Source: an uncultured Kofleriaceae bacterium
Lineage (GTDB): Bacteria; Myxococcota_A; Polyangia; Haliangiales; Haliangiaceae
Reading direction: 5' to 3'
DNA: 64,000 nucleotides
Assembly (NCBI GenBank): GCA_964602685.1
Contig: CAZRSQ010000002.1
Span: 4,217 to 68,216 of the forward strand
Position numbers and translations under genes: made by a program. Each line of letters opens with the position of its first letter. Within the stretch, counting starts at the first letter, position 1. Positions 15,718 through 52,512 of this stretch are shown here, piece by piece. The notes under the pieces were generated by a model that was given only the letters and a program-made list of their open reading frames with translations, made no database searches and was not told the origin of the DNA.

Positions 15718-16794
15718 CTACGCTAGATTGGGCGGTGGCGGATTCCCTGGGCCCTTGGGCGACAACCAGCCGCCCAAGGCGAGAACGTCCCAGGCGAGCT
15801 GGACCTGGCGCGGATCGAACGCGCGCTTGCGAGCGTTCCAGGCGTAGACCGCGTCCCTCGCCTCATCGGCTGTCGTGGCTCCCTCGTGCGCGGCGACCCA
15901 GTGAACGGTCGCCAGAAGCTCCATGCCGAACGGCGTCTCGAATCCCTGGACCAGCTCCGCGACTCGGTCGAAGCGGGCACGAGTTATCGGGTGCGACTCC
16001 AGGAACGATACCGCGCTCGCGCTCGCGCCCGGCACGAGCGCGAGCTGCTTGTCTGGTGCGTCGCCGCCGTCCTTGTAGCCGGAGATCAAGTGCCCCTCGA
16101 CGTGCGCAAGGACGTGCCGGAGGTTCTCGGCGTACGGTCCGTAGACAGCCTTCTTGTAGTCGAGGCGCAGCGGCTCGCCGGCCTCTTGCATGAAGTACAT
16201 CAGCTTGTGGACCTCGAGCAGGGAGACGAACGGATCCATCAGCCCCGCCAGGTACCGTTCTACCAGCGCCACGAGGACCGCGCGGCCGGGCGTCATCGCG
16301 GGCGCGGTCGCCGAACGCGCCATGGCGTGAGCCGCGGGTGCGCCGATGGGCTCGAACAGGAGGACCTTCACGTCGGGCAGGGTGGCGAACGCTCGCTCGA
16401 TCCGCGGGCGCACGTCAGACCACGCGAGTCCACCGAGTCCGCAGCCAAGCGGCGGCACTGCGATCGACTTGATCCCCAGGCGTCGGATCTCGGCCGTGAG
16501 CGCGACCAGCCCCGCATCGATGTCCTCAAGCCGGCTGTTCGCTCGCCAGTGGCGCTTGGTCGGGAAGTTCACGATCCAGCGAGGGTTGGTGAGCTGACCG
16601 GTCTCCACGACGAGCATCCGGCCGGGCTGGACTTCTTCCCGCTTGCATGCCGCCTCGTACACCGCGAAGTTCGCGGGGAACGCGCGCTTGAACTGCGCGG
16701 CGATCCCGCGCCCCATGAACCCGACGCAGTTGACCGTGTTGACCAGCGCCTCGGCGTCGGCCTTGAGAATGTCACCGGTGGTGGGCTCGATCAT
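15718..16794 (-). CDS. darG: DarG antitoxin (macrodomain ADP-ribosylglycohydrolase with C-terminal DarT-binding domain)
   Basis: N-terminal macrodomain: GDILKADAEALVNTVNCVGFMGRGIAAQFK ... AVPPLGCGLGGL. A roughly 200-aa C-terminal domain follows. The gene sits 15 nt downstream of darT. Confidence 0.9.
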   Translation of the reverse strand: MIEPTTGDILKADAEALVNTVNCVGFMGRGIAAQFKRAFPANFAVYEAACKREEVQPGRMLVVETGQLTNPRWIVNFPTKRHWRANSRLEDIDAGLVALTAEIRRLGIKSIAVPPLGCGLGGLAWSDVRPRIERAFATLPDVKVLLFEPIGAPAAHAMARSATAPAMTPGRAVLVALVERYLAGLMDPFVSLLEVHKLMYFMQEAGEPLRLDYKKAVYGPYAENLRHVLAHVEGHLISGYKDGGDAPDKQLALVPGASASAVSFLESHPITRARFDRVAELVQGFETPFGMELLATVHWVAAHEGATTADEARDAVYAWNARKRAFDPRQVQLAWDVLALGGWLSPKGPGNPPPPNLA

Positions 16795-16809
16795 CGGTTG
16801 CGATCCCGC

Positions 16810-17457
16810 CTAGTAGTACCACCTTGGCCGGACATCGACCGGAGGCTGGTGCGCGGCCGTCGCGATGGCGGCCTGGGCGGCGGACTGGACCGAGGCTGAG
16901 TGGACGCCCACGGCTTCGACCAGCTCCCAGGGGAAGGTGTCGTGGAACAGGAACTCGGACTGCTTTGCCTCCTTGACGGCAGGATCGCGGAAGTCGTTCG
17001 ACTCGACGGCAGGCCAGTCGATGAGGGAGAGATCAGAGGTCGACGCGCAGAACCTCGCGTATCGTGCGCCCGCGTTGGAGGTGGTGAACGCCCAGCGACG
17101 GCCTTGTTGCTGAGCCCATGAGACGACCGCGTGCAGGTCACCTTGCAGGTGGACGATCGGCCCCTGGCCGCCGCGGTACGCGAGGTCTGGATGGTTGGCG
17201 CAATGGATCACGTAGAGCATGATCGAGCGCGGGCAGAAGTAGAACGGCACGAAGTCGCCGACGTGGTCGCCGGGGTGGCAGGTGACGGGAAGCGCGAGGC
17301 GCCGTTGCTTGATGTTCGACATGCCGATCGCCGACGGCGGCCCACCGAGCGTGATCATCGCCGCGTCCGAGCGGAGGCAACCGACACCGACGATCGCGGG
17401 CAGGTTGTCCACATGCGTGATGTGGAAGATCTTGGGCGCGGTGGGAGGCGAGGGCAC
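16810..17457 (-). CDS. darT: DarT ssDNA thymidine ADP-ribosyltransferase toxin (DUF4433)
   Basis: GTG start. Motifs IFHITHVDNLPAIV, FVPFYFCPRSIMLY and KQSEFLFHDTFPW (with the catalytic Glu context) are characteristic of DarT. Confidence 0.9.
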   Translation of the reverse strand: MPSPPTAPKIFHITHVDNLPAIVGVGCLRSDAAMITLGGPPSAIGMSNIKQRRLALPVTCHPGDHVGDFVPFYFCPRSIMLYVIHCANHPDLAYRGGQGPIVHLQGDLHAVVSWAQQQGRRWAFTTSNAGARYARFCASTSDLSLIDWPAVESNDFRDPAVKEAKQSEFLFHDTFPWELVEAVGVHSASVQSAAQAAIATAAHQPPVDVRPRWYY

Positions 17458-17586
17458 GGTGGAGGCTCGGCCGAGATTCGGTCAGGACTGCTGTCCGGAT
17501 CGGGGGGCGGCCAGTCTGTGGGATGGGGCGCGGCCAACGTCGCGCAACACCCGTTCCGCCGCATCCGCGAAGGTCATCGCCATCGA

Positions 17587-18291
17587 TCAGCTCCTTCCTT
17601 GCCGTTCCACATCCGCGCCTGCCGCCACCCGAAGCGCACGGACCAGCGCCCGCAGCTCATGGAGCGACAGCGCCTCCAGCGCCAGGGTGCCGAGTGCGCC
17701 CACCAGATCGCGGGTCACCCGATCGACCACGCGCGGGCTCGCTTCCTCGAGCTCGTCGAGCAACGCGACCACCGCCGGTCGATGCCAGCTGTACCGGCGC
17801 ACGAACACCTGGATCGCGATCGACTGCCGCGCGAAGACGCGCTCCGTGAGCGCGTAGTCGCCGCCCTCTCGCGTTAGCTCCGCCACCCACCATAGCCGCG
17901 AGAAAACGTTGCTGTCATGCCGCATGCCCGGGCTCCAGTAGCGGGTACGGGTGGTTGCCCAGGTCTCGACCGCCCACCGATGCCGGACCAGCTCGGGGAG
18001 GTGCACCACCGCCAGGAAGCGCCAGACGCCCGGCATGGCCGCTTCCCGTCGCGATAGCGGCAAGGCGCGGTGGAGGCGCGGCGCGGCCTGCTGATCGATC
18101 GCCGGATCGTGCCGGACCGTGGTGGCCAGGATGTCCGAAACCTCGGCGTCGAGCTCGTCGAGCGCCACGGGCTCTCCCGCCTCGTCGAGGAATCGCTCGT
18201 AGACCGCCGGCTCATAGCGCGGGATCTCTCCGCGCGCCAAGGCCTCGGTGACGAGGAACTGGGCCTCGGGCGCCAGCCGGTGGAGCTTCAT
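17587..18291 (-). CDS. Uncharacterised protein (possibly DUF6339-like; family name from memory, unverified), last gene of the five-gene operon
   Basis: 234-aa ORF with normal composition (PGVWRFLAVVHLPELVRHRW, NVFSRLWWVAELT). Its ATG overlaps the upstream stop (ATGA at 18288-18291). Confidence 0.6.
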   Translation of the reverse strand: MKLHRLAPEAQFLVTEALARGEIPRYEPAVYERFLDEAGEPVALDELDAEVSDILATTVRHDPAIDQQAAPRLHRALPLSRREAAMPGVWRFLAVVHLPELVRHRWAVETWATTRTRYWSPGMRHDSNVFSRLWWVAELTREGGDYALTERVFARQSIAIQVFVRRYSWHRPAVVALLDELEEASPRVVDRVTRDLVGALGTLALEALSLHELRALVRALRVAAGADVERQGRS

Positions 18292-19289
18292 GCCAGCTCC
18301 TCCGTTAGGTTGGTGGCGCGCCCGCCGAAGTCGAGGTGCTCCTGGAGTGCGCCGTCCAGCCTAGCCAGCACGATCTCATCACTGTCGTCGTCGAGATCTT
18401 CGCGCAGCGCCTCCAGGCGCGAGTCCGCGTCGAGCGTCTCCGGGTAGATCGCCGGAAGCAGGCGTGCAAGCACCGCTCGCTGCCACTCGTGCACCGGTTC
18501 CCCGGCGCGCTGAAGATCGCGCGCAGCGCGCCAGAACAGCCGCGACCACACGCCGTACGAGATCTGACCGAACAGCACGTCGCGCAGGCGGGCGACGCGC
18601 CCCACGGTCCCGCCACCGTCCAGCACCGAGCAGACCTTGGCATGGTCGAGGTTGATCCACAGCACTGGCGCATCACCGTCGCAGTCGAGTTGATACATGG
18701 AGGCCGGGTGCGGAAACCGCGGCGGCCCGGATTCACGGAAGCTCTCGTAGCGGATGTCGAGATACTCGCCCGTTGGAGAGCGGACCTCGTCGACGCGGAT
18801 CTCCACCGTCGCGCCGGTCGCCAGGCGGCTGCCGGTGGCGTCGGCGAAGCCATCGTCCGCCGCGTCGCGTCCAGTTGATCGGATCAGGACCGGCGTCAAC
18901 TCAACCGCGCCCTGCAGCTCACTGCGCACGAGCGTGACCTCGCCGGCGCTCATGCCGACCGACAGCCGCGCTTCGCCAAGCGCGACCGCGCGGCGGATCC
19001 GGGTCGCCGAGCAGGTCACGATGACCATCAGGCGTCCGGGCGGCGCGGTGCGCTCCTCGGGCGAAAACAAGGACTCCACCAGGTCGGCCCCTAGGCTCAC
19101 TTCGACGCGAACGCGGGCGGTCGACCACCGCGATGACGAAAGCTCCAGCACCCGCCGCTCGGCGTCGTAGGCCGCGGTCACATCGCGATCACCGTCGAGC
19201 CGGCACTGCTGAACCGAGAACCCCAGACCGTGGTCCACGAAGGCGTAGGGCAGGAAGCGCTGCTTGCGGACAGTGAACGCCCGGGTCAC
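18288..19289 (-). CDS. Uncharacterised protein, fourth gene of the five-gene operon
   Basis: GTG 19289 overlaps the stop of the GHKL gene (GTGA). The 333-aa product begins VTRAFTVRKQRFLPYAFVDHGLGF... with normal composition. The N-terminal 255 aa of the 588-aa track ORF are Arg/Gly-rich artefact that overlaps the GHKL gene. Confidence 0.6.
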   Translation of the reverse strand: MTRAFTVRKQRFLPYAFVDHGLGFSVQQCRLDGDRDVTAAYDAERRVLELSSSRWSTARVRVEVSLGADLVESLFSPEERTAPPGRLMVIVTCSATRIRRAVALGEARLSVGMSAGEVTLVRSELQGAVELTPVLIRSTGRDAADDGFADATGSRLATGATVEIRVDEVRSPTGEYLDIRYESFRESGPPRFPHPASMYQLDCDGDAPVLWINLDHAKVCSVLDGGGTVGRVARLRDVLFGQISYGVWSRLFWRAARDLQRAGEPVHEWQRAVLARLLPAIYPETLDADSRLEALREDLDDDSDEIVLARLDGALQEHLDFGGRATNLTEELA

Positions 19290-21154
19290 GGCGGCGCCCC
19301 CACGCGGCTGCGCGCCTCGAGCATCACGGCACGCCGCCCACCCGGTGCCGGCGACAGGACCGCGCTCGTCCCGGTGAACACCAGCCGCGGTCCGCGCACC
19401 ACGAGGACCGCGGCCCCGTCGACCAGATAGACCTCGGCGCCGGTGCGGGTCTCGAGCTGTTCGATCGCCACCGCCGACAGCTCGGCGCCGTCCTCCCCGC
19501 TCTCGCTCAGCCGCAGCGCACACTCCCACTGGTCGAGCTCCAGGGCGGGACGAACCTCGCCCTGGAAGTGCCACCGGCCATCCGCGAAGCGCGCCACCAG
19601 GTCGCGCACATGGAACGCCGACGTGCCGCGCCCACCGCCGCCCTTGCTGCCCAGCGGGAACATGCGGCGGAGCCGTTCCGGCCCTTGTCGGCCGCGACGC
19701 GGCTGCGCGACCACGATCTCCTTGAGCGCCTCGTCGACCCGGTGACGAAGCTGCTCGAGCGCCTTGGCGTAGCCACGTTTGTAGTCCCCCTTGAGCGCCG
19801 CGGTGGACTCCCAGGTATCGTGCCCAGGCGGTTCGGCGGCGCGCAAGAAGCGCTCGACCGCGACGTCGATCTCGACCGGAGCCTCGGGGGCGCGGGCATC
19901 GCCGCAAGCGACCACCGCATGAAATGGCCGTGCACCGAGGGCCAGCCGCCGCTTGTCGGCGTACCAGATGATCATCCCAGGGCCGCGGAACCAGGCGACG
20001 TGACCAGCCAGCGGGTGACTCTCGCGTTCGTCCTCGGCGAACAGCCGCACGCAAAGGCGCACGTGTCCCTTGACCGCCGGCTGCCCATCAAGCCGGGCGG
20101 GGACCTCCAGCTCGATCTCCCGCACCACCACATCGCCCGCGGTATCGCGGGACGTACGCGTGGACGTGCGACCGCGGTATGCTTCGATGAACGGCCGGGT
20201 GAGTTGCAGGTCGCGCGCTGGAAGCATGGGGCGCGGGCGCGTCGCTGCCATCCACACCGTCAGCGGGTTTCCGGGCATGACCATCGCCGGCCAGAAGTCT
20301 CGCTCGACGGCCTCCTCGATGTCCTTCGCCAGGTCAGCCGCCGATCGGTCGGTGTCGGCCGCCGGATCCCGGAATCCCACGATGGCGATGCTCGTTCCGG
20401 GCACGTCGCTGCGCGCCAGCCCCAGCGCTCCCGCCAGCTCCGTCGCGTCGGCAGCCCACACCGATTCGGCGCGCTCGCCATCTCCATCCGAGACGCGACG
20501 GCCGAACCACCCCGAGCCCGAGTAGGCCGTCCGACCTCGCCGCGCGGCGCCGCGTGCGATCTCGTGGGTGGGCAGCTCCACGCGCCCGAAGAGGCGAGGC
20601 GATCGCTGTCCAGGGCCATCGATCGACAGGTTCGAGTTGAAGAGCACCATCGAGAGTCCCGAGAACGTCCACAACACCGATTTGCCGAGGCCGTAGCTGC
20701 CGCCCGCACGTTCGTTCTGCTTGTGGCTGAACAGGGTGTCCTTGCAAAGCGCGCGGAAGTGCGAGTCGCCCTCCAGTTCATGCCCGGTCAACCCGACCGT
20801 GTGTCGGTCCTCGACTACCAGGACCAGCAGTCGTTGCTTGCGGTCCATGTCGTCGAGAAATCCGTGCAGATGCCGCCCTCCACGAGTGCTCGCAGCAGCG
20901 CGCAAATGCGGCTCCAGGGTCGGCCACGAAACCGCCGCGAGGAATCCCGCAAGTGGGTCACCGGCCAGTTCCATGAAGCGAAAATGGATCTCGGGCGCTC
21001 CGGTCCGCTGATCGTTGGCGTTCTGCACGACCTCGCGCACGAAGCTGGTGACGGTCTGGCGGAAGACGTGGCTCGCGGGATCGCCCCCTCGCCGCGCCCC
21101 CGACGCCGGCAAGGGGTCGAACACCCACTGTGCTTTCTCGTGCTTGCCAGGCAC
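19286..21154 (-). CDS. GHKL-superfamily (MORC/paraMORC/sacsin-like) ATPase
   Basis: GTG start. It has an N-box-like FVREVVQNANDQ and a glycine-rich lid motif AGGSYGLGKSVLWTF. 622 aa, 5 nt downstream of the BrxL-like gene. Confidence 0.75.
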   Translation of the reverse strand: MPGKHEKAQWVFDPLPASGARRGGDPASHVFRQTVTSFVREVVQNANDQRTGAPEIHFRFMELAGDPLAGFLAAVSWPTLEPHLRAAASTRGGRHLHGFLDDMDRKQRLLVLVVEDRHTVGLTGHELEGDSHFRALCKDTLFSHKQNERAGGSYGLGKSVLWTFSGLSMVLFNSNLSIDGPGQRSPRLFGRVELPTHEIARGAARRGRTAYSGSGWFGRRVSDGDGERAESVWAADATELAGALGLARSDVPGTSIAIVGFRDPAADTDRSAADLAKDIEEAVERDFWPAMVMPGNPLTVWMAATRPRPMLPARDLQLTRPFIEAYRGRTSTRTSRDTAGDVVVREIELEVPARLDGQPAVKGHVRLCVRLFAEDERESHPLAGHVAWFRGPGMIIWYADKRRLALGARPFHAVVACGDARAPEAPVEIDVAVERFLRAAEPPGHDTWESTAALKGDYKRGYAKALEQLRHRVDEALKEIVVAQPRRGRQGPERLRRMFPLGSKGGGGRGTSAFHVRDLVARFADGRWHFQGEVRPALELDQWECALRLSESGEDGAELSAVAIEQLETRTGAEVYLVDGAAVLVVRGPRLVFTGTSAVLSPAPGGRRAVMLEARSRVGAPP

Positions 21155-21159
21155 CGAGA

Positions 21160-23199
21160 TCAGCCCACCACGCTCGGCAGCAGCGCGTGCTGAAGGACTT
21201 CCTCGATCCGCTCGACCGTGACGATCTCGATCTTGCCGAGCACGTCGTCAGGAACATCGCGCAGATCCGCGGCATTCGCCGCCGGGATGATAACCGTGCG
21301 CCGCTGGTGGTGTGCCGCTGCCACGATCTTCTGCGGTACACCGCCCACCGCCTCGATGCTGCCGTGGAGCGAGACCTCGCCGGTCATGGCGATGCCGGGC
21401 CGTACCGGCAGCTTCAACGCAGCCGACACCATCGCGGTGACGAATGCGATCCCGGCGGACGGGCCGTCCTTCGGATCAGCGATGTTGACCAGGTGGACGG
21501 CAGTCTGGGCTCCGGAGAGGCGTGCTGCCGCGGCATTCCATGGCGCCGGCAACAACTGGAGGGTCTGGTAGGCGGTCCGGACCGAGTCCTCGAGTACCTT
21601 GCCACGCAGCCCGGTGACGCTCGGTCCAGGCCGACCGTTCAAGCTGGACACTTCGATGAAGAAGACGTCGCCGCTGATCGCGGCGTCGCCGCGAGTCAGG
21701 ACGACGAGTCCAGTCACGTGGCCTACGATCGGATCGCGGTTCGCGCGCGCATCCCGTTGCTGGAGCTTCTGGGTATCGACGAGGTCGCGCGCATCCTGCT
21801 CGACCATGCCCGCAAAGGTGATCGCTCTTCGCGAGAATTCACCTGGCGCGATGTGGGTGAGCTGATTGTGCACACGCTGCCGCAGCTCGACGCCGAAGCG
21901 CAGACACGCCCGGCGATCGTCATCACTGGCGTTGCCGTCGGGGAACAGCAGCTTGAACATTCCATTGGCCACCCGCAGCGCCCCGCGCTCGTCACGCACG
22001 GTCGCAGGCGCCTCGATCCGGAGATCGGCGAAGTGCTTGCCGACATCCTCCGCGCGCAGTTCACGAAGCACCTCGCCGAAGTAGTCGATCACGAAGCCGA
22101 CGCCACGGGCGAGGGAGCTCTGGCTCACCTTCGGGATCTCCCAGCCCGGGATGTACCCGTGGATGCGGTCCAGGAATGCCGCATCGATCAAGGCTGCGGG
22201 CAGGTCCTCGAACAAGTGCGTGTAGCCATCACGTGGTGACTCGCCGGTCACATCCAGGTTCCCGGCCAGGACCAGGCTCGCGTCGGACGGAAAACGCCGG
22301 GCGCCACGGCTGAACTCGCCGCTCTCCATGTAGTCCTTGAGCGTCGCCACCACTTCTCGATCGGGGAACGTGGTCGCGGCGATCTCATCGAACACGATGA
22401 CCTTGCGGGTCCCGAGGATGCCGACGCGCCCGGTCTGCTTGTTCACGAACAGCGTCGCCGGCGACGGACGCCCGCCCGAGATCGTGAACACCGATGGCGA
22501 CACGTTGCGCAACAGGAACGTCTTCCCGGTGCCGCGCGGTCCCAGCTCGATCATGTTCACGTTGTGCTCGACGAGGGGCACGAGGCGCGCGAGCAAGAGC
22601 CACTGCTGTCGCATCGTCAAGGCATCCGGCTCGTACCCGGCGCTCCGGAGCAGCAGCCGGATCCACTGTTCGGTCGTGAAGCGCGCGCGGCCAGCTCGGT
22701 AACTCGCCACGTCGGGACGCGCGACCTGGAACGGCACGAAGTCGGCCACCGCCAGCCGTGGCTCGACCTCGGCATCGTACGTCAGACTGATCGTTCCCCA
22801 CAGCCCGCCGTTGAGCGCGGCCTCGTAGCGGTCGACAAGCCTGGCGTCGATCGCCAGCTTCTCGCCGTGCAGACAGTTGACCCTAGCCCAGTGGCGTCCG
22901 GCCCCGAGGTCGGTCTCGACCTCGAGATGGTCGATGACCGTGTGGGCTCCGTTCTGAAGGAGCTTGTTCTTGATGAGCTCCTTCTGATCCGCCTCCGGGA
23001 TACGGCCACGGATCCGCTCCTTGATCGACGCCACGCCCTCCTGCTCACGACCCGGCTTCACGAACTTCGCGATCAGGTACTCGGCGACGTAGCGCGGGAG
23101 CCGATGGAAGATCTCCTGATTCGCGAGGAGCTTGTCGACAACCCGGTCGCCGTAGACCTCGCGCGCGAGCACCGCATCGCCTTCGATCGTGGACGTCAT
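21160..23199 (-). CDS. BrxL-like AAA+ ATPase / Lon-type protease (orphan paralogue, catalytic dyad retained)
   Basis: Its N-terminus and AAA+ core align with the BREX brxL at 39336-41369: LPRYVAEYLIAKF vs VPVFVLEYLLGKY, Walker A GPRGTGKTFL vs GPRGTGKSYV, and FLDRIHGYIPGWEIPK vs FLDRLHFYLPGWEVPK. The C-terminal Lon domain keeps DGPSAGIAF and GGVPQKI (Ser-Lys dyad). Confidence 0.85.
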   Translation of the reverse strand: MTSTIEGDAVLAREVYGDRVVDKLLANQEIFHRLPRYVAEYLIAKFVKPGREQEGVASIKERIRGRIPEADQKELIKNKLLQNGAHTVIDHLEVETDLGAGRHWARVNCLHGEKLAIDARLVDRYEAALNGGLWGTISLTYDAEVEPRLAVADFVPFQVARPDVASYRAGRARFTTEQWIRLLLRSAGYEPDALTMRQQWLLLARLVPLVEHNVNMIELGPRGTGKTFLLRNVSPSVFTISGGRPSPATLFVNKQTGRVGILGTRKVIVFDEIAATTFPDREVVATLKDYMESGEFSRGARRFPSDASLVLAGNLDVTGESPRDGYTHLFEDLPAALIDAAFLDRIHGYIPGWEIPKVSQSSLARGVGFVIDYFGEVLRELRAEDVGKHFADLRIEAPATVRDERGALRVANGMFKLLFPDGNASDDDRRACLRFGVELRQRVHNQLTHIAPGEFSRRAITFAGMVEQDARDLVDTQKLQQRDARANRDPIVGHVTGLVVLTRGDAAISGDVFFIEVSSLNGRPGPSVTGLRGKVLEDSVRTAYQTLQLLPAPWNAAAARLSGAQTAVHLVNIADPKDGPSAGIAFVTAMVSAALKLPVRPGIAMTGEVSLHGSIEAVGGVPQKIVAAAHHQRRTVIIPAANAADLRDVPDDVLGKIEIVTVERIEEVLQHALLPSVVG

Positions 23200-23201
23200 C
23201 C

Positions 23202-24923
23202 TCAGTTCTCCTCATCGTCGAAGAGCGAGTCGAGAAGCGGATTGGCGCGCACGCCACCGGCGATGACCGGCTCGGCCAGGAGCGACGGCTCGGGAACTGG
23301 CTCTGGGGCCATGACCTGCGGCGGAGGCTCGGGCAGACGGGACTCCTTCGCCGAATCGAGGCCGAGCTCGGTTGCGTACACGACGACCAGGTCGTCGGCG
23401 TACGCACCGGCCGGACAGAGTTCGCGAAGATCATCCAGCAGCTGTCGCCGCTGGGCAGTAGTCAGCGTCTCCCGGAGCTGTCCCACGACCTGCACGAGGT
23501 CAACGTGAGTCGACGCGTACTGATGCGCGAGCGCGCGCAGTCGAATCTGGTCGGCCGCCCCCAGCGCCAGCTCTCGTGCCGCCAGCTCGACCGCCCGCCG
23601 GCGGCCGCCCTCGTCGAGCCGTTGGATCGCCGCCGCGTTCTGCACCAGGAACTGGAGCCGCAACGCGGCCCTCTCGAACGCAGTGACTGCGGGGCGGACT
23701 GGCGGTAGCGAGTCCGGAGGCTTGTTCTTGATGGGTCCTGGCGGCCTCGGGTCCTGGGGGATCGACGTGTCGCCCGAGGTACGGCGGACGATGGTGGTCC
23801 GAGCTGCGATACCCGGCGACTGCGTCACCCGCAGCAGGTCCGGGTCGCTGACGTACCCTCCTGCGTCGAGCACGCGCCCGAGGTCCCTCACGGCCCGCGT
23901 CGTGAGGCGCTGGTCGGCGGTGTATCGCCCGAGCTTGTTCACCAGCGTCTTGATCAGGAGGCTGGCTCGTGGGCGTGCCTGCGTATGCTCACCCAACCAG
24001 GCGAGGAAGGTGTCGTCGAGCGACTCCTCCTCGGGTTCGTCGAGCGCGACCTCGTCCTCCGAGAGTCTCGCGAGCGTCCACGGACGAGTCGAGAGACGAA
24101 CGATGTCCTCGGCGGCAACCTCGGAGAACTTGTCGTCGTACCAGTGGACGAGCACGTCTCCGCTATCGGGATCGACCTTGATCACCCGAGCGGGCTCGTG
24201 GACCCTGCCGCGATACCTGGCCGCGACGATTGCGCCATGCGCGATGGGCACGTGCGACGCCTCGTCGGCGCGCTCGTCATCGAGATCAGCGGCATGTCGC
24301 TTCCGGGCGATGTCTCCGTCGCCGTCGAGGAAGTACAGGTAGCGTGAGTAGTCCATGGCGATGCCAGCGTTGACGACCCTCACAGCCTTGCCCTTCGGCT
24401 GCCCCGGTCGCTTGCGCGGCACCGCCCACAGATCTCCGTCCTTGACGTAGTACATGAGTGAGGAGTCGCGCACGACACCGGCGCGGAAGACCTTCTCCGC
24501 CTCGCCGCGCAGCTCAACGGCCTCCACGTCCTCCAGATCCTCCGCTTCCTCATCGAGGTCGTCCTCGCGAACGAAGCGAATCGGCGATCTGCGTCCGAGC
24601 GGACGCACTTGCATGGCCTTCGGGTCTCCCTTCCAGAGGAGACGAAGAAGTGTTTCGAGCTCTGACCGCGCTGCCTGCCCTACATACGTGAAGTAGCCGG
24701 TGACGCCCCCGTGATCCGTGAAGACGTCTTTCGTCAGGTAGTCGACCATGTCGGACTTCCTGAGGAACGGCAGGAGCTCGTCGAGCTCGCCGCGCATCGA
24801 ACGCGCAAGCCGCGAGCGCTTGTCGAACTGGTCTCCGCCGGTCGGCAACCCTCGCTCTTCACACATGTCACGCAACCTTGAAGGCGTGATGCAGTCCAGG
24901 ACCTTCCGGATGTCGCTAGCCAT
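23202..24923 (-). CDS. Uncharacterised protein with SAP-like N-terminus and Tudor/Agenet-like central segment, first gene of the five-gene operon
   Basis: ATG 24923; the track start at 24929 is TTG. The N-terminus is SAP-like: MASDIRKVLDCITPSRLRDMCEERGLPTGGDQFDKRSRLARSM. The central segment is Tudor-like: GAIVAARYRGRVHEPARVIKVDPDSGDVLVHWYDDKFSEVAAEDIVRL. The tail is acidic. Its stop lies 2 nt before the BrxL-like start. Confidence 0.65.
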   Translation of the reverse strand: MASDIRKVLDCITPSRLRDMCEERGLPTGGDQFDKRSRLARSMRGELDELLPFLRKSDMVDYLTKDVFTDHGGVTGYFTYVGQAARSELETLLRLLWKGDPKAMQVRPLGRRSPIRFVREDDLDEEAEDLEDVEAVELRGEAEKVFRAGVVRDSSLMYYVKDGDLWAVPRKRPGQPKGKAVRVVNAGIAMDYSRYLYFLDGDGDIARKRHAADLDDERADEASHVPIAHGAIVAARYRGRVHEPARVIKVDPDSGDVLVHWYDDKFSEVAAEDIVRLSTRPWTLARLSEDEVALDEPEEESLDDTFLAWLGEHTQARPRASLLIKTLVNKLGRYTADQRLTTRAVRDLGRVLDAGGYVSDPDLLRVTQSPGIAARTTIVRRTSGDTSIPQDPRPPGPIKNKPPDSLPPVRPAVTAFERAALRLQFLVQNAAAIQRLDEGGRRRAVELAARELALGAADQIRLRALAHQYASTHVDLVQVVGQLRETLTTAQRRQLLDDLRELCPAGAYADDLVVVYATELGLDSAKESRLPEPPPQVMAPEPVPEPSLLAEPVIAGGVRANPLLDSLFDDEEN

Positions 24924-25107
24924 GTCCAAGCGTGCCCCCTCGTCTGCAGAATAGATCGGGGCGCACCCCCGGATGTCGCTCCCAAGACGATCGACCGGCG
25001 CGATTTCGAACAGCCCTGGCGCTCACCCGAACCGGGGGAGATCCGCATCGCGCTGGGAGCCACGTCCGCACGGCCGTTCGAACGAGCCTGCGTGTTACAA
25101 ACGGCCG

Positions 25108-25773
25108 ATGAGCTCGCTGGAAGGACAGGGGCGCTTCGTCGCGGCGTCGCTGCGGCTGCTCCAGTTCGTGGAGCAGCGGCGGCCGACCGGGCGGCGGTTC
25201 GGCGCGGACGCGGATGCGCGCTGGGGCAGCTTCAAGGGTGACCTCCTGACGGCGCACCGGATCGAGCTGTTGATCCGCGACGCGGATGCCGAGTGGCCGG
25301 GCGCGTTCGGGGCGCGGAGCGTGTACGACCTGCGCGGCATCGCCGAGGACGAGCCATTCGGATCGCAGTGGGCGGGCGTGGACCCGATCGAGGCGGAGGA
25401 GCTGTGGCGAGCGCTGCGCGGCCAGAAGGCTCCGGAGTCCGCGAAGGACGTCTTGCGCGCCATCGCCGACGCCTGGGGGCTCACCCTCGAGGCGCACGAC
25501 GTCGGTAAGATCGGCCCGACCGATCGGCTCGTGATCGCCGGGCCCTCCGCGATCGCGGCGACGATCGAGGCGTTCGCCGGCGGCACGGCGCTCGACTGGG
25601 CGGACCAGGTCAGCGTGATCGCCACGCCGCCGGCTCACCGCCAGCTCGCCGCCGCGGCAACGGCCATCCTGGGATCCACGCGCCCGTGCCGGTTCGGACC
25701 GGGCCCCAAGGGCGCGCGGGTGATCGTGTCGAAGGACGTCGATCCCGCCGACCGCGCGGCGGCCGGAGACTGA
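25108..25773 (+). CDS. Hypothetical protein, coupled upstream partner of the PglW-like gene
   Basis: ATG 25108 (MSSLEGQGRFVAASLRLLQFVEQ...) with normal composition. Its stop at 25771-25773 lies 1 nt before the GTG start of the next gene. Confidence 0.5.
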   Translation: MSSLEGQGRFVAASLRLLQFVEQRRPTGRRFGADADARWGSFKGDLLTAHRIELLIRDADAEWPGAFGARSVYDLRGIAEDEPFGSQWAGVDPIEAEELWRALRGQKAPESAKDVLRAIADAWGLTLEAHDVGKIGPTDRLVIAGPSAIAATIEAFAGGTALDWADQVSVIATPPAHRQLAAAATAILGSTRPCRFGPGPKGARVIVSKDVDPADRAAAGD

Positions 25774-25774
25774 C

Positions 25775-28700
25775 GTGGCCCTGTCGCGCCAGCGCGTGCT
25801 CGCCGAGGGCACCACGCCCTATGCGCACGAGCGCGAGGGCGTGGCCTTCGCGCTCGGCGCGTTGCCCGACACCGACCCGTACCACGCCTGGGCACTCGTC
25901 GATCTGCTCGATCCCTCCACCGGACGGCTGCTCGAGATCGATCTGCTGGTGCTCGGCTATTCCTGCCTCTACCTCGTCGAGATGAAGGCCTGGCCGGGCC
26001 GCATCGAGGGCGACGCCATCGACTGGCGCTGGATCCCGCCCGAGGGCCGCGAGCGCTGGCGCGACAACCCGCGGCCGCTCGCGCATCGCAAGGCGCAGAT
26101 CCTGAAGTCTCGGCTCGAGCACGCGATGCCGACGGGGATGCGCGCCCCGTGGGTCGAGCCGCTCGTCTTCCTCACCGACAAGGACGTCAAGCTCGGCCTG
26201 ACTCCCGACGGCATCCTCGGCGTCATCCGGCGCGACGACTTCGCCGCCGCCATCACGCGGCACGACTTCCGCGGCGCCGACCCACGACACCAGGGCCGCG
26301 CCATCAACGAGCCCACCCGGCGCGCCGTGCTCGCCGCCATGCGCACCATCGGCATTCGCGAGCGCAAGGGCAAGCTCAACGTCGGATCCTACGTCCTCGG
26401 CGAGCTGCTCGCGGAGACCGACAGCTACCAGGATCGCGAGGCCACCCACCGCGAGATCCCGGCCCAGAAGCGCCGCGCCCGCACCTACCTCGTCCCCGCG
26501 CAGACTTCGGTCGAGCTGCGCCAGCAGCTCCGGCGCGCCGCCGACCGCGAGGCCCAGCTCCTCTACGAGGTCCGCGAGCACCCCTGCATCCTCCCGTACA
26601 CCGACTACGTCGGCGACGCCGAGGTCGGCCCCACCGTCCTCTTCGATGCCTTCCCCGACGGCATCCCGCTCGACGCCTTCCTGCGCCGCGAGCCCGACGT
26701 CACCTTCGCCGAGCGCGTCGCCATCCTCGGCGACGTCGCCCGCGCCCTCGCCCACTGTCACCGCCGCCGCGTCTTTCACGGCGGCGTGTCGCCGTCGGCG
26801 ATCCTGGTGCGCCGCCGCCCGTCGGGTGTCGAGACTCGCCTGTTCAACTTCCAGCTCGGCGGCGCGGAGGGCGTGGACGCCACCAGCCACCGCTCCGTCC
26901 TCGGCGACGAGCAAGTGCCGCTCTACCAGGCGCCTGAGCTGCGCCAGGGCCAGACCACGCCCGACGCCTCGTCGGACATGTTCAGCCTGGGGGCGGTCGC
27001 CTACCTGCTCTTCACCGGGCAACCTCCGGGCGCCACGCTCGCCGAGATCGACGAGCGGCTCCGCGTCCACCGGCGCCTCGACCCGCGCGCGGTGAGCGAC
27101 ACGATCCCCGGCGACGTCGCCGACCTGATCGCCGACGCCACGCACGAGACCATCTCGCTCCGCTACGACGACCCGGGCGGCTGGTTCGAGCTGCTCGTCG
27201 ATGAGATCACGAGCGCGACCGCCGCCCCCGCCGCGCCCGAGGTCAGCCCGCTCGACGCGCGCAAGGGCGACCTCGTCGGCGGCTACCTGGTGCACGGCGT
27301 GCTCGGCCACGGCGCATCGGCCCGCGTCCTCCACGTCGAGCGGGACGACGGCCGCGAGTTTGCGCTCAAGGTCTCGCTCGGCCCCGACCACGACGCCCGG
27401 CTCGCCGCCGAGGCCCGCGCCCTCGCCCGCCTGCGCCACCCTCGCATCGTCCAGCTCGAGGGCCCGCCCGAGCGCCAGCCGATCACCATCGGCGGCCGGC
27501 CCTGCCTGCTCATGTCGCTCGCCGGCGTCTCGCTCCAGCGCGAGCTCGCCGACCACGGCGCGGTCTCGCTCGACTTCGCCGCGCGCTACGGCACCGATCT
27601 GCTGTCGGCGCTCGAGCACCTCGAGGAAGAGGAGGTCGTCCACCGCGACATCAAGCCGGCCAACGTCGGCATCGGCGCGCTTCAGAAGAAAGCGTCGAGC
27701 CTGACGCTGTTCGACTTCTCGCTCGCCGGGATCGACCTCGCCGATGTGCGCGCCGGCACCGCGGCCTATCGCGATCCCGAGGTCGCCGCCCGCGGCCGCT
27801 GGGACGCCGCCGCCGATCGCTACAGCGCCGCGGTCACGCTCTACGAGATGCTCACCGGCCAGCGGCCCGAGCTCGGGCGCATCTCCCCCGAGCGCTTCGA
27901 CGCCGCCGTCCGCACCTCGCTGACCGCGTTCTTCAGCACCGCGTTCGCCTCCGGCGTGTCCGCACGCCATGTCAGCGCCAAGGTCATGCGGCGCGAGTGG
28001 GAGCGCGCCTTCGAGGCCCAGGCCCCGGTCGCGTCACCGGTCGCCGCCCCGGACGACGAGGAGCTCACCGACGCGGCCGTCGCCGCGATCACCGCCGATA
28101 CGCCGATCCACGCGCTCCCGCTCTCGGCGCGGGCCAAGAACGCGCTCGATCGCGCGGGCGTGCTGCACGTCATCGAGCTGCTCGGGCTCCCCCACAACCG
28201 CCTGTCGGCGATCCGCGGCGTGGGCAAGCAGGTCGCGCTCGACATCCTCGCCTTCCGCGATCGCTGGGCGCGCCTCACCGGCATCACGCCGGCCTCCGGC
28301 GAGCCCGCGTACTTCCCCGGCTATCGCGGCGACGACCTGATGGTCCACCTCGTCGCCCTGCCCGCGGTCACCGCCGAGCGCCTCGACGACGCCGGCCTGC
28401 GCTCGCTCCAGCAGATCGCCGCGGCGCCGCGCACCCAGCTCGCCAACCTCGCGCAGCACGGCGGCCTCGACGACGCCGCGCTCCGCGCCGTGCTCACCGC
28501 CGAGCACGACAAGGCCACGTCGCGCGCCCAGCCCACCACGCTCGCCACGTGGATCGATGCGCTCCTCCCCGCGGGCAAGAAGCGGTTCCAGCACGCGCGC
28601 GAGCTGTTCGGCCTCGAGGGCCCACACGCCGGACGCGTCGGCGTGAGCCCGCGCGAGCTCGCCGAGTCGCTCCAGCTCACGACCGCCGCGGTCTACATCG

Positions 28701-30031
28701 CGCTCGGCAAGGCGCGCGACGACTGGAGCAAGCACGCGGCGCTGCCCGTGCTGGTCGCCCAGGTCCACGCGCTCGTCGAGCAAGCGGGCGGCGCGCTGCC
28801 GCTGGCCCGCGCCGGCACCGAGCTGCTGGCTGCGATCCCTCACGCCGGCGAGCCCGACGCCGACGTCCGCGCCGCCGCCCTGGTCCGGCTGATCGCCGAG
28901 ATCGAGAAGGAAGATCCGGGCGGCCTGCGCTTCGTGCGCCTCGACGGCGAGGTCCCGTGGATCCTGCGCAGCGACGACATCGAGCAGGCCGTGCGCCGCC
29001 TCGGCGCCACCGCCGACGAGCTGGCCGGCCGCGAGGTGCTCGCCGGACCGATCGAGGCCGCGCGCGCACTCGCCGAGGTCGCGCAGGGCACGGCGCTGGC
29101 GTCGCTCGCACCCGATCGCCTGGTCCGACTCGCCGCCGCCGCCGGCAAGCGCGCCGCCGCCTCCACGCGCCTCGAGCTGTATCCGCGCGGCATGGACGCG
29201 CGCCGCGCGCTGATGCTGTCGGCGGCCGTCTTCACCAAGGACCTCCCCGAGGACGAGCTGCGCCGCCGGGTCGAGGCCCGCTACCCCGAGGCCGCACCGC
29301 TCCCGCCGCGCCCGCAGCTCGACGCGCTCGTCGAGGAGCTGGGGCTCCGCTACGTCGCCGCCTCCGGCCTCTACTCGCGCCCCGGCGAGGAAGGCAAGAG
29401 CTCGCTCCACACCAGCGTCCGCTCGCCGTTCACCACGTTCACCCGCGTGCGCACGGGGCCCGAGATCGCGGCCGCCGACGTCGCCCGGGGCGAGTTCGAC
29501 GATCGGGTGCGGCTCTGCCTCGAGCGCCGCTCCCTCCTGGTCCTCGGCGTGACCGCCGATCTCACCCGCTACGCCGAGCGCGCGCTGCGCAACCGCTTCA
29601 ACCTGGAGCCGCACTCGTTCGACGCGCTGTTCCTCGCCGAGCTCGATCGCCAGATCGCCCGTGCCCGCGTCAACCCGTACCTGGTCTTCTCCACCGACGG
29701 CGTCGGCCGTCTCGGCGACGGCTGGCCCAACCTGCGCCGCCTCGCCGAGGCCACCGCGACCGCCATCGCGGACGCGCTCCTGCCCGCGAAGACCCCGCTC
29801 CTGCTCACCCAGCCCGGACTGATCGGCCGCTACCAGCTCACCGGCTTCCTCGATCGCCTGGTCAGCGCCGCCCGCGACGCCGACGACGGCGCCGCCATCT
29901 TCCTCCTCGTCCCGGGCCACGACCGCGCCGCGCCGGTCATCGGCGACGTGGCCATCCCGGGCCTCTTGCCCGGTCAGCACTGCTGGATCCCAGGCTCCTG
30001 GCTCAGGGAGCACGCCCCGAAGGTGGCGTGA
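25775..30031 (+). CDS. PglW-like giant protein: NERD domain + pseudokinase + Ser/Thr kinase + HhH motifs + large C-terminal region
   Basis: The NERD-like N-terminus reads HAWALVDLLDPSTGRLLEIDLLVLGYSCLYLVEMKAWPG. The first kinase-like domain has a degenerate catalytic loop (VFHGGVSPSAILV). The second is intact (ALKV, VVHRDIKPANVGI, DFSLAG, GTAAYRDPE). Alpha-CTD-like HhH motifs follow (LPLSARAKNALDRAGVLHVIELLGL). 1418 aa in total. Confidence 0.8.
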   Translation: MALSRQRVLAEGTTPYAHEREGVAFALGALPDTDPYHAWALVDLLDPSTGRLLEIDLLVLGYSCLYLVEMKAWPGRIEGDAIDWRWIPPEGRERWRDNPRPLAHRKAQILKSRLEHAMPTGMRAPWVEPLVFLTDKDVKLGLTPDGILGVIRRDDFAAAITRHDFRGADPRHQGRAINEPTRRAVLAAMRTIGIRERKGKLNVGSYVLGELLAETDSYQDREATHREIPAQKRRARTYLVPAQTSVELRQQLRRAADREAQLLYEVREHPCILPYTDYVGDAEVGPTVLFDAFPDGIPLDAFLRREPDVTFAERVAILGDVARALAHCHRRRVFHGGVSPSAILVRRRPSGVETRLFNFQLGGAEGVDATSHRSVLGDEQVPLYQAPELRQGQTTPDASSDMFSLGAVAYLLFTGQPPGATLAEIDERLRVHRRLDPRAVSDTIPGDVADLIADATHETISLRYDDPGGWFELLVDEITSATAAPAAPEVSPLDARKGDLVGGYLVHGVLGHGASARVLHVERDDGREFALKVSLGPDHDARLAAEARALARLRHPRIVQLEGPPERQPITIGGRPCLLMSLAGVSLQRELADHGAVSLDFAARYGTDLLSALEHLEEEEVVHRDIKPANVGIGALQKKASSLTLFDFSLAGIDLADVRAGTAAYRDPEVAARGRWDAAADRYSAAVTLYEMLTGQRPELGRISPERFDAAVRTSLTAFFSTAFASGVSARHVSAKVMRREWERAFEAQAPVASPVAAPDDEELTDAAVAAITADTPIHALPLSARAKNALDRAGVLHVIELLGLPHNRLSAIRGVGKQVALDILAFRDRWARLTGITPASGEPAYFPGYRGDDLMVHLVALPAVTAERLDDAGLRSLQQIAAAPRTQLANLAQHGGLDDAALRAVLTAEHDKATSRAQPTTLATWIDALLPAGKKRFQHARELFGLEGPHAGRVGVSPRELAESLQLTTAAVYIALGKARDDWSKHAALPVLVAQVHALVEQAGGALPLARAGTELLAAIPHAGEPDADVRAAALVRLIAEIEKEDPGGLRFVRLDGEVPWILRSDDIEQAVRRLGATADELAGREVLAGPIEAARALAEVAQGTALASLAPDRLVRLAAAAGKRAAASTRLELYPRGMDARRALMLSAAVFTKDLPEDELRRRVEARYPEAAPLPPRPQLDALVEELGLRYVAASGLYSRPGEEGKSSLHTSVRSPFTTFTRVRTGPEIAAADVARGEFDDRVRLCLERRSLLVLGVTADLTRYAERALRNRFNLEPHSFDALFLAELDRQIARARVNPYLVFSTDGVGRLGDGWPNLRRLAEATATAIADALLPAKTPLLLTQPGLIGRYQLTGFLDRLVSAARDADDGAAIFLLVPGHDRAAPVIGDVAIPGLLPGQHCWIPGSWLREHAPKVA

Positions 30032-41369: not shown

Positions 41370-41371
41370 GG

Positions 41372-48947: not shown

Positions 48948-48953
48948 GGCGGC

Positions 48954-52499: not shown

Positions 52500-52512
52500 C
52501 GGGCGGTCCTCA

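What the first reader, a model, noticed from the sequence alone, without database searches (positions are those of the whole stretch)
17587..24923. Five-gene translationally coupled operon (SAP/Tudor-like, BrxL-like Lon, GHKL ATPase, two unknowns): candidate undescribed defence system
Five minus-strand genes are packed with almost no intergenic space. The junctions are 2 nt, 5 nt, a GTGA overlap at 19286-19289 and an ATGA overlap at 18288-18291, which argues for one operon and stoichiometric co-expression. The genes are as follows. (a) A 573-aa protein with a SAP-like DNA-binding N-terminus and a Tudor-like segment. (b) A 679-aa BrxL-type AAA+/Lon protein. (c) A 622-aa GHKL ATPase with a MORC/paraMORC-like N-box (REVVQNANDQ) and lid (GSYGLGKS). 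(d) A 333-aa unknown protein. (e) A 234-aa unknown protein, possibly DUF6339. The operon sits between DarTG and a PglW-like kinase inside a defence island. There is no methyltransferase, PglZ or recognisable nuclease in it, so it is not a BREX. I cannot match this gene set to any named system (BREX 1-6, DISARM, Zorya, Druantia, Mza, Shango and others). GHKL ATPases and BrxL-type ATPases are each known from conflict systems, but this combination appears new.
Basis: partly seen in the sequence, partly recalled or inferred. Interest (0 to 1): 0.8.

Follow-up and report, generated by a model that had tools for sequence, protein, structure and literature searches.

The report
Two defence cassettes fused into one operon
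The five tightly packed genes are real, but they are two separately mobile, experimentally untested defence-island cassettes placed end to end (a BrxL-type ATPase with an intact Lon protease site plus a partner protein, and a GHKL ATPase trio), not one new five-gene immune system.

Summary
Five minus-strand genes (A 573 aa, B 679 aa, C 622 aa, D 333 aa, E 234 aa) are joined by 2-nt and 5-nt gaps and by GTGA and ATGA overlaps. B is a BrxL-family protein. C is a GHKL ATPase by motifs and predicted fold. E is DUF6339. D has no known family.

C-D-E recurs as a fixed trio in about 66 loci from Myxococcota, Halobacteria and five other phyla, and none of them has A or B. A-B recurs as a pair in 9 of 9 other loci, and the 7 with enough downstream sequence lack the trio.

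C and E match the untested PADLOC candidate PDC-M33 weakly. D does not match it.

In haloarchaea the trio co-diverges with a cytosine-5 DNA methyltransferase and is often present in 2-3 copies, which suggests a restriction-modification-like role.

B and its close relatives keep the Lon Ser-Lys catalytic pair. The BrxL of the BREX system in the same window lacks both residues.

I see no recognisable nuclease, and nothing has been tested experimentally, so the mechanisms are inferred. I rate this a new variant of known kinds, of moderate interest.

The parts
23202..24923 (-). Gene A (573 aa), partner of the BrxL-type protein. It has a conserved N-terminal domain (1-115), an acidic linker, a lineage-specific insert, a conserved block at about 309-380, a proline-rich linker, a TerB-like region (416-520) and a conserved C-terminal tail AGGxRxNxxLDxLF (555-568).
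   Evidence: ORF and junctions. Sub-threshold TerB match. Only 9 homologues found by the word-index search. A profile search found 174 representatives among 1.84 billion proteins at E<=1e-3. Domain layout comes from alignment A7.
21160..23199 (-). Gene B (679 aa), a BrxL-family AAA+ protein. Walker A is at K226 and Walker B at D271/E272. The Lon domain keeps the catalytic Ser581 (PKDGPSAG) and Lys624 (GGVPQKIVAA).
   Evidence: Family matches. Alignment A8 shows 79-85% identity to the B genes next to three A homologues (L072-L074). It shows 32% identity to the BREX BrxL of the same window, which lacks both catalytic residues. Residue numbers.
19286..21154 (-). Gene C (622 aa), a GHKL ATPase with a transducer-like domain and a C-terminal beta-sandwich. 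Bergerat-fold motifs: E41/N45/D48, D116xxxxGLxG, G151GSYGLGKS, G253T. An invariant AEPPGHDxW motif lies at 440-448.
   Evidence: Alignments A1 and A4. AlphaFold2 model with mean pLDDT 88.8. Best Foldseek PDB matches are the ATPase regions of GyrB and topoisomerase II, E 5e-6. PADLOC PDC-M33A 5.5e-15.
18288..19289 (-). Gene D (333 aa), the middle subunit of the trio. It belongs to no described family. The model shows an N-terminal beta-sandwich and a C-terminal helical bundle.
   Evidence: No Pfam, NCBIfam or PADLOC hit. No PDB sequence relative. AlphaFold2 model pLDDT 79.9, pTM 0.49. No Foldseek match below E 1e-3. It lies between C and E in about 50 loci.
17587..18291 (-). Gene E (234 aa), a DUF6339 protein and the third subunit of the trio. 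It is rich in conserved Arg and Trp (R105, N128, R132, W135 invariant).
   Evidence: Pfam DUF6339 49.9 bits. All 48 orthologues match DUF6339. PADLOC PDC-M33C 4.7e-8. Alignment A3.
17482..17583 (-). 33-aa ORF, the 5' remnant of a HARE-HTH gene. I read it as a scar of mosaic assembly lying between the trio and DarT.
   Evidence: Its N-terminus MTFADAAERVLR matches the starts of the HARE-HTH proteins in L077 and L073, which lie downstream of A-B pairs.
25108..30031 (+). A small ORF (about 221 aa) and an orphan PglW (1418 aa), transcribed divergently from A. They may be a partner of the A-B cassette. They are not part of the five-gene block.
   Evidence: PADLOC PglW 1083 bits. Gene calls in L001. 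The same divergent arrangement occurs in L075, with PglW 65% and the small protein 66% identical.

Best explanation
The block is a mosaic of two independent defence-island cassettes that are here probably transcribed together, and possibly with DarTG as well.

Cassette 1 (A-B). B is a BrxL-family, MCM-like AAA+ protein. Unlike the BrxL of the BREX system in this window (the only BREX BrxL I compared), it keeps an intact Lon Ser-Lys site. It is paired with A, a rare and fast-evolving partner. Inferred mechanism: B assembles on DNA as BrxL does. A acts as the DNA- or invader-sensing adaptor or as the proteolytic substrate. Lon cleavage, of A or of an invader protein, is the output.

Cassette 2 (C-D-E). 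This is a translationally coupled trio built around a GHKL ATPase with a transducer-like domain, of the paraMORC, MutL or GyrB type. Inferred mechanism: C dimerises on ATP binding and clamps or loops DNA. D and E supply target recognition or recruit effectors. In haloarchaea and two bacterial lineages the trio is coupled to a cytosine-5 methyltransferase, so there it probably acts as the restriction arm of a restriction-modification-like system. No nuclease is recognisable, so the effect may be DNA compaction or blocking, or may rely on an unrecognised active site.

Shown here: the composite origin, the family and fold assignments, the conserved synteny of each cassette, and the methyltransferase co-divergence.

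Inferred: the defence function and every mechanistic step.
For: Independence of the cassettes:
- C-D-E occurs in the same order in essentially every locus long enough to show it, among the 62 genome loci, which come from 7 phyla. None has A or B.
- The four closest metagenomic homologues of C that I examined (71-73% identical) also lack A and B.
- A is followed directly by a B-type gene in 9 of 9 other loci, and none of the 7 informative ones has the trio.
- A HARE-HTH gene remnant sits right after E. Intact versions lie downstream of A-B in two other loci.

Defence context:
- In the window: DarTG, PglW and type 1 BREX.
- A-B lies inside a type I CRISPR-Cas locus, next to McrBC and a Schlafen-like ATPase, after a WYL regulator, and after an MmeI-like enzyme.
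- The trio lies next to a type IIG enzyme, an SNF2/HKD helicase, a cytosine-5 methyltransferase and a GmrSD-like gene (L055); HsdR (L019); a type IV enzyme (L023); and HsdS plus a ScoMcrA-like HNH protein.
- Among 107 immediate bacterial neighbours, 8 carry a ResIII helicase domain.

Fold of C: pLDDT 88.8, matches to the GyrB ATPase region at E 5e-6, and all four Bergerat motifs invariant.

Methyltransferase link:
- The methyltransferase is adjacent to the trio in 17 of about 22 haloarchaeal loci.
- Pairwise identities of C and of the methyltransferase correlate at r=0.986 over 91 pairs, down to 53% identity for C.
- The methyltransferase matches M.HaeIII and M.HhaI. The neighbouring glycosylase matches MutY and the G-T mismatch enzyme 1kea.

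Active Lon site in B-type proteins only. The literature describes canonical BrxL as lacking the dyad (PMC12839542).
Against: - Neither cassette has any experimental test, and PDC-M33 itself is untested.
- No effector domain is recognisable in C, D or E.
- Most Myxococcota trios, and the one in this window, have no methyltransferase nearby, so methylation-based discrimination cannot be general.
- Many bacterial neighbours look like housekeeping genes.
- Enrichment near defence genes was not tested against a control set.
- The haloarchaeal methyltransferase linkage could partly reflect common descent of one island.
- The 5-nt B-C gap leaves open that the two cassettes cooperate in this genome.
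- E could not be modelled, and the model of D has a modest pTM (0.49).
Confidence: 0.6

Rival explanations
1. The five genes are one functional system, a lineage-specific fusion in which the BrxL-type ring and the GHKL trio work together.
For: The gaps are 2 nt and 5 nt and two junctions overlap by 4 nt. All five genes have similar third-position GC (0.81-0.86), which differs from PglW and the flanking genes at 0.92-0.97. The block is identical in three independent assemblies.
Against: The two cassettes never co-occur elsewhere, neither in about 66 trio loci nor in 7 informative A-B loci. DarTG is an independent known system, yet it is packed just as tightly downstream and has the same GC3. 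A gene remnant separates E from DarT.
Confidence: 0.1
2. The C-D-E trio is not an immune system. It is a MutL-like DNA-repair or chromatin-maintenance module, for example one that handles damage linked to 5-methylcytosine.
For: C has a GHKL-plus-transducer fold like MutL and GyrB. In haloarchaea it sits beside a cytosine-5 methyltransferase and a T:G/MutY-type glycosylase. No nuclease or toxin is recognisable. Many Myxococcota neighbours are ordinary genes.
Against: The distribution is patchy, spanning bacteria and archaea at 35-60% identity. Haloarchaeal loci carry 2-3 paralogous copies. The trio repeatedly sits next to restriction enzymes and defence helicases. It is homologous to a candidate that was found embedded inside known defence systems.
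Confidence: 0.15
3. A-B is an accessory of a BREX/Pgl-type system. On this view B is a second BrxL that serves the nearby type 1 BREX or works with the adjacent orphan PglW.
For: PglW and a small ORF lie divergently next to A both in the window and in L075, with PglW 65% identical. A complete type 1 BREX lies about 14 kb away. B passes the NCBIfam BrxL cut-off.
Against: Eight of the 9 other A-B loci show no PglW or BREX gene in the sequence available. The BREX operon has its own BrxL. B is only 32% identical to that BrxL and, unlike it, keeps the Lon dyad. GC3 steps from 0.95 (PglW) to 0.81-0.84 (A, B).
Confidence: 0.15

Closest known systems
PADLOC candidate system PDC-M33 (components A, B, C), one of 145 untested 'phage defence candidates' predicted by guilt-by-embedding (bioRxiv 10.1101/2024.01.29.577857)
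   Same: It is a three-gene layout with a GHKL-type protein of about 627 aa first and a DUF6339-type protein of about 247 aa last. C matches PDC-M33A and E matches PDC-M33C. Paralogous haloarchaeal trios match more strongly, at 125 and 57 bits.
   Different: The matches are weak and partial: C aligns over residues 29-175 only. D and four D-like proteins do not match any PDC-M33B model. The window's trio is therefore a distant sister family, not a clear member. PDC-M33 has no experimental support or proposed mechanism.
Prokaryotic MORC/paraMORC GHKL ATPases of restriction-modification operons (Iyer, Abhiman & Aravind 2008, PMC2292703), and the validated MORC-related mzaABCDE system (Gao et al. 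2020, cited in PMC9523054)
   Same: The ATPase has GHKL plus a transducer-like domain and a family-specific C-terminal extension. It is linked to cytosine methyltransferases, to a T:G-repair enzyme (functionally like Vsr) and to SF2 helicases. The proposed role is ATP-driven DNA clamping or looping.
   Different: C matches no Mza or Hma model in PADLOC. Its fixed partners D and E are not described in that literature. Helicases, nucleases and methyltransferases are absent from the window's copy and from most bacterial copies. I did not test membership of any named paraMORC1-5 family.
[quoted passage not shown]
   Same: B has the same three-part architecture (BrxL_N, MCM-like AAA+, Lon-like C-terminus) and passes the NCBIfam BrxL cut-off.
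   Different: B is 32% identical to the BREX BrxL in the same window. It keeps the Lon Ser-Lys pair that canonical BrxL is reported to lack. It always follows gene A rather than PglZ. It occurs away from BREX genes in 8 of 9 other loci. [quoted passage not shown]
ATPase regions of type IIA topoisomerases (GyrB 43-kDa fragment, ASFV topoisomerase II)
   Same: These are the best structural matches to the model of C, at E 5e-6 to 3e-4 with target-normalised TM about 0.45-0.48.
   Different: Sequence identity is about 10%. C has no Toprim or cleavage domain, and it carries a C-terminal beta-sandwich that these enzymes lack. The resemblance is at the level of the fold only.

Membership tests
BREX (any type) | PglZ and BrxC/PglY (plus the PglX methyltransferase in most types) in the same gene cluster | tested here: not met
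   None of the five proteins matches PglZ, BrxC or PglX in PADLOC, Pfam or NCBIfam. A separate, complete type 1 BREX lies at 39336-54476.
BrxL family (gene B) | BrxL_N, BrxL AAA+ ATPase and Lon-like C-terminal domains, with a score above the curated cut-off | tested here: met
   Pfam PF20442, PF13337 and PF05362 all match. TIGR02688 scores 443 bits (cut-off 329). TIGR02653 scores 385 bits, below its cut-off of 628.
BrxL family (gene B) | Lon domain without the catalytic Ser-Lys pair, as reported for canonical BrxL | tested here: not met
   B and three B-type relatives keep PKDGPSAG and GGxxQKIxAA. The BREX BrxL of the window has neither. Literature statement.
PADLOC PDC-M33 | Matches to all three component models (A, B, C) in adjacent genes | tested here: inconclusive
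   C matches PDC-M33A at 5.5e-15 (partial) and E matches PDC-M33C at 4.7e-8. D has no match at E<=0.1. D-like proteins of other trios also fail to match.
GHKL ATPase superfamily (gene C) | Bergerat-fold motifs I-IV (ExxxNxxD; DxGxG; GxxGxG; GT) | tested here: met
   E41, D48, D116, G124, G151-S159, G253 and T254 are invariant, and N45 and G121 nearly so, in 94 sequences.
GHKL ATPase superfamily (gene C) | GHKL fold followed by a transducer (S5-like) domain, as in GyrB, MutL and MORC | tested here: met
   AlphaFold2 pLDDT 88.8. The top 17 Foldseek hits are ATPase regions of GyrB or topoisomerase II. No sequence-level PDB or Pfam match.
MORC/paraMORC restriction-modification systems | Conserved linkage to an SF2 helicase, a nuclease and/or a DNA methyltransferase | tested here: inconclusive
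   Met in haloarchaea, where a cytosine-5 methyltransferase is adjacent in 17 loci and a helicase plus a DUF1998-like gene lies nearby in 7 (one of them bacterial), and in L055 and L067. Not met in the window or in most Myxococcota loci.
Pfam DUF6339 (gene E) | Score above the Pfam gathering threshold | tested here: met
   49.9 bits against a cut-off of 23.2. 48 of 48 orthologues match.
TerB domain (gene A) | Score above the Pfam gathering threshold | tested here: inconclusive
   22.4 bits against a cut-off of 24.4, E 1.6e-4, residues 427-502.
SAP and Tudor domains (gene A) | Profile or structural match to the domain | tested here: not met
   No Pfam match at E<=0.1. The family profile has no PDB relative.
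Mza / Hma (GHKL-containing PADLOC systems) | Match to the system's component models | tested here: not met
   The only PADLOC match of C is PDC-M33A.

The most novel reading that the evidence does not exclude
Two uncharacterised immune systems sit side by side.

(1) The first is a GHKL trio without a recognisable nuclease, present in both bacteria and archaea. It would restrict foreign DNA by ATP-driven clamping or compaction, in the manner of MORC proteins. In haloarchaea it would read cytosine-5 methylation, with several paralogous trios serving several methyltransferases.

(2) The second is a BREX-independent BrxL-type DNA-loading ring whose active Lon protease converts invader sensing by a fast-evolving partner into a proteolytic signal. 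It may be wired to the PglW kinase.

On the fullest version of this reading, their fusion into one operon here reflects real cooperation.
Probability: 0.25. Interest if true: 0.8.

Novelty: new variant of a known kind. Interest (0 to 1): 0.55.

Why it matters
If confirmed, cassette 1 would show that the BrxL scaffold works outside BREX and with a live protease. That bears on the unresolved question of what BrxL does in BREX.

Cassette 2 would add an experimentally approachable GHKL (MORC-like) system shared by bacteria and haloarchaea. It has a built-in genetic test, because it co-diverges with a methyltransferase. It also has no obvious nuclease, which is relevant to how MORC-type ATPases silence or restrict DNA.

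For annotation practice, the case shows that tight, overlapping gene packing inside a defence island does not by itself define a system.

Tried and rejected
- I submitted D and E as one concatenated query to obtain homologues of both in a single search. It returned only 13 D homologues and none of E.
- Profile searches of C, D, E and A against PDB sequences gave nothing significant.
- Pfam scans of all D and E orthologues at E<=1 gave no consistent second family.
- The scan of IMG/VR viral contigs for relatives of C found none.
- Promoter and terminator scans of 15500-25900 found no more sites than in shuffled sequence.
- Repeat and tRNA searches found no flanking repeats or integration sites.
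- Literature searches for DUF6339 and PDC-M33 returned no papers.
- A GHKL-Shedu protein, VcSduA, was considered and rejected because C has no DUF4263 nuclease domain.
- My first simple gene caller missed D because of start-codon overlap, and I corrected it.
- I could not obtain per-protein PADLOC results for the 107 neighbours or run a control set, so enrichment near defence genes is described but not tested statistically.
- The source organism could not be named.

Full report
**1. Observation**

The five minus-strand ORFs and their junctions are exactly as described:
- A is 23202-24923 (573 aa).
- A 2-nt gap follows, then B at 21160-23199 (679 aa).
- A 5-nt gap follows, then C at 19286-21154 (622 aa).
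- C and D overlap by GTGA. D is 18288-19289 (333 aa).
- D and E overlap by ATGA. E is 17587-18291 (234 aa).

The window is about 69% G+C. The five genes have third-position GC of 0.81-0.86.

**2. What the five proteins are**

- **B** is a BrxL-family protein: Pfam BrxL_N, BrxL_ATPase and Lon_C, NCBIfam TIGR02688 at 443 bits (cut-off 329), and PADLOC BrxL at 471 bits.
- **E** is DUF6339 (49.9 bits).
- **C** has no Pfam match. It matches PADLOC PDC-M33A (5.5e-15, residues 29-175), and E matches PDC-M33C (4.7e-8).
- **D** matches nothing.
- **A** has only a sub-threshold TerB match (22.4 bits, cut-off 24.4). The SAP and Tudor labels are not supported by any profile.

**3. Surroundings**

- Immediately downstream, with gaps of 3, 24 and 15 nt, come a 33-aa ORF, DarT and DarG.
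- Upstream and divergent lie a small ORF and an orphan PglW (1083 bits).
- A complete type 1 BREX (BrxA, BrxB, BrxC, PglX, PglZ and its own BrxL) lies at 39336-54476.
- The block is therefore in a defence island. The tight packing continues into DarTG, which is an unrelated known system.

**4. The C-D-E trio is a conserved unit that stands alone**

- C has at least 352 homologues. All those that carry a name are called hypothetical.
- A scan of one genome per GTDB species found 62 loci. They come from Myxococcota, Halobacteria, Planctomycetota, Thermoleophilia, Gemmatimonadota, Armatimonadota and Chloroflexia.
- In essentially every locus long enough to show it, C, D and E follow each other in the same order and on the same strand. 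No locus has a homologue of A, of B, or of the BREX BrxL within 10 kb.
- Five metagenomic homologues of C, four at 71-73% identity and one at 49%, show the same picture.
- The 4-nt overlaps are themselves conserved: 35 of 56 C-D junctions and 24 of 46 D-E junctions.
- No relative was found in 2.9 million viral contigs.

**5. A-B is a second conserved unit that stands alone**

- A is rare. The word-index search found 9 proteins. A profile search of 1.84 billion representatives found 174 at E<=1e-3 and 18 at E<=1e-30.
- In all 9 other loci recovered, A is followed within a few bases by a 678-684-aa B-type gene.
- The 7 loci with at least 2 kb of sequence beyond B have no trio.
- Their contexts are defence-rich:
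  - inside a type I CRISPR-Cas locus, between Cas_GSU0054 and Cas4-Cas1;
  - before a Schlafen/AlbA-type ATPase and McrBC;
  - after a WYL regulator;
  - before a DUF1016 nuclease-like gene and a HARE-HTH gene;
  - after an MmeI-like enzyme.
- One locus (L075) repeats the window's divergent arrangement of small ORF plus PglW, with PglW 65% identical. Its contig ends inside B, so it says nothing about the trio.
- B is far better conserved than A. Across the six Logan/JGI loci (L072-L077), B is 69-85% identical to the window's copy and A is 35-56%. This pattern fits a conserved engine working with a fast-evolving specificity or sensor subunit.

**6. A scar supports mosaic assembly**

The 33-aa ORF after E begins MAMTFADAAERVLRDVGRA. 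The HARE-HTH proteins downstream of A-B in L077 and L073 begin MTYADAAELVLRETQRAM and MTFADAAHTVLSETRRAM. The ORF is therefore the truncated 5' end of such a gene. This is consistent with the trio, DarTG or both having been inserted into an older A-B neighbourhood.

**7. Structure**

- **C.** An AlphaFold2 model built on 94 sequences is confident (pLDDT 88.8, pTM 0.78). Its best PDB matches are the ATPase regions of GyrB and topoisomerase II, which consist of a GHKL domain plus a transducer domain (E 5e-6, target-normalised TM about 0.47). The last 110 residues or so form a beta-sandwich. All four Bergerat motifs are invariant or nearly so, as is the motif AEPPGHDxW at 440-448.
- **D.** The model rests on 13 sequences (pLDDT 79.9, pTM 0.49). 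It shows a beta-sandwich followed by a helical bundle, with no PDB match below E 1e-3.
- **E.** It could not be modelled. Its conserved residues are mainly Arg, Trp, His and Asn, which I read as compatible with nucleic-acid binding. That reading is an inference.
- None of C, D or E shows a known nuclease motif.

**8. Haloarchaeal clue to function**

- In 17 of about 22 haloarchaeal loci, a gene matching M.HaeIII and M.HhaI (a cytosine-5 methyltransferase) is adjacent to the trio. It usually lies divergently just upstream of C.
- It is often accompanied by a 211-aa glycosylase that matches MutY and the G-T mismatch enzyme 1kea. That is the repair partner expected for a 5-methylcytosine methyltransferase.
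- Over 91 locus pairs, the identity of C (53-94%) and of the methyltransferase (58-96%) correlate at r=0.986. The two have therefore been inherited together over long divergence.
- Unrelated cytosine-5 methyltransferases also flank the trio in a Thermoleophilaceae locus and a Chloroflexia locus.
- Haloarchaeal loci often hold 2-3 paralogous trios, and some hold more than one methyltransferase. A helicase plus a DUF1998-like gene lies within 10 kb in seven loci, one of them bacterial.
- This is the contextual pattern that Iyer et al. described for MORC/paraMORC ATPases of restriction-modification systems.
- The window, however, has no cytosine-5 methyltransferase and no second trio, and neither do most Myxococcota loci.

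**9. B differs from canonical BrxL**

- Three B-type proteins (L072-L074) aligned with B all keep PKDGPSAG and GGxxQKIxAA, which are the Lon catalytic Ser and Lys (S581 and K624 in B).
- The BREX BrxL in the same window has GNRVEAEIG and NEPLRVA at those positions and is 32% identical to B.
- B is therefore a BrxL paralogue with a probably active protease, used outside BREX.

**10. Most likely mechanism (inferred)**

- **Cassette 1.** B loads on DNA as a ring, as shown for BrxL in PMC10164562. A provides targeting or sensing through its conserved N-terminal and central domains, its TerB-like domain and its invariant C-terminal tail. Lon proteolysis is the output, acting on A or on an invader protein.
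- **Cassette 2.** C dimerises on ATP binding and clamps DNA. D and E, made in fixed ratio through translational coupling, recognise the target or recruit effectors. Where a methyltransferase is linked, unmethylated DNA is the likely target. Elsewhere the signal is unknown.
- I give 0.85 to the two-cassette architecture, about 0.65 to a defence role for each cassette, and 0.2-0.3 to the specific mechanisms. The overall confidence of 0.6 given for the best explanation reflects this mix.

**11. Comparison with known systems**

- The nearest catalogued entity to the trio is PADLOC PDC-M33, an untested candidate found by guilt-by-embedding. The match is partial, and D does not match.
- The nearest described concept is the paraMORC-type restriction-modification ATPase, and the validated Mza system belongs to that group. 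C matches no Mza or Hma model.
- The nearest relative of B is BrxL, with the differences given in section 9.
- The block fails the defining features of BREX.

**12. Verdict**

- The proposal of one new five-gene system is not supported.
- The more modest claim that these are undescribed, probably defensive genes is supported.
- Novelty: new variant of known kinds. Interest: moderate (0.55).
- The interest comes mainly from the BREX-independent BrxL with an intact Lon site, and from the trio shared across bacteria and archaea that co-diverges with a methyltransferase.

Noticed in passing
window 17482-17583 (-): A 33-aa ORF between E and DarT is the truncated 5' end of a HARE-HTH gene. Intact versions with the same N-terminus lie downstream of A-B pairs in L073 and L077.
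   Followed up: yes
window 25108-30031 (+); L075:3-4625: An orphan PglW, reported to be specific to type 2 BREX, sits with a small upstream ORF divergent from A. No type 2 BREX partners (BrxD, BrxHI) turned up among the window proteins I scanned. The same arrangement recurs in L075. In both loci the third-position GC of the PglW pair exceeds that of A-B by 0.11-0.20. I have no explanation for this.
   Followed up: partly
window 39336-54476 (-): A complete type 1 BREX with three oddities. An extra 363-aa gene (47856-48947) without a PADLOC match lies between BrxC and PglX. The BrxA ORF is 462 aa, but only residues 207-462 match BrxA. PglX has a third-position GC of 0.72 against 0.92-0.96 for the other BREX genes, which suggests a recent replacement.
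   Followed up: no
L034-L054, L062 (haloarchaeal genomes), e.g. L037:2-13577: Two or three paralogous GHKL-D-DUF6339 trios per locus, for example three within 13.6 kb in L037. They lie together with one or two cytosine-5 methyltransferases and a MutY/Mig-like glycosylase. A conserved 258-aa protein without relatives (e.g. L040:5638-6414) occurs in 13 loci.
   Followed up: partly
L076:109-9712: An A-B pair is embedded in a type I CRISPR-Cas locus, between Cas_GSU0053/GSU0054 and Cas4-Cas1/Cas2, next to a Uma2-family gene.
   Followed up: no
L055:4-17846: In a Thermoleophilaceae genome the trio lies in a dense island. The island holds an SNF2/HKD helicase, a type IIG restriction-methyltransferase enzyme (949 bits), a UvrD-like helicase, a cytosine-5 methyltransferase and a GmrSD/HEC-06-like gene.
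   Followed up: partly
window 13339-15255 (-), 30053-31528 (-), 9547-10893 (-): Three sizeable ORFs in the island (638, 491 and 448 aa) have no Pfam or PADLOC match.
   Followed up: no
L079:1-8611: A trio 73% identical to the window's is preceded, 12 nt upstream, by a gene whose translation looks like a type I specificity subunit (HsdS), by my reading only. It is followed by a ScoMcrA_N-HNH gene and an IS21 element.
   Followed up: partly
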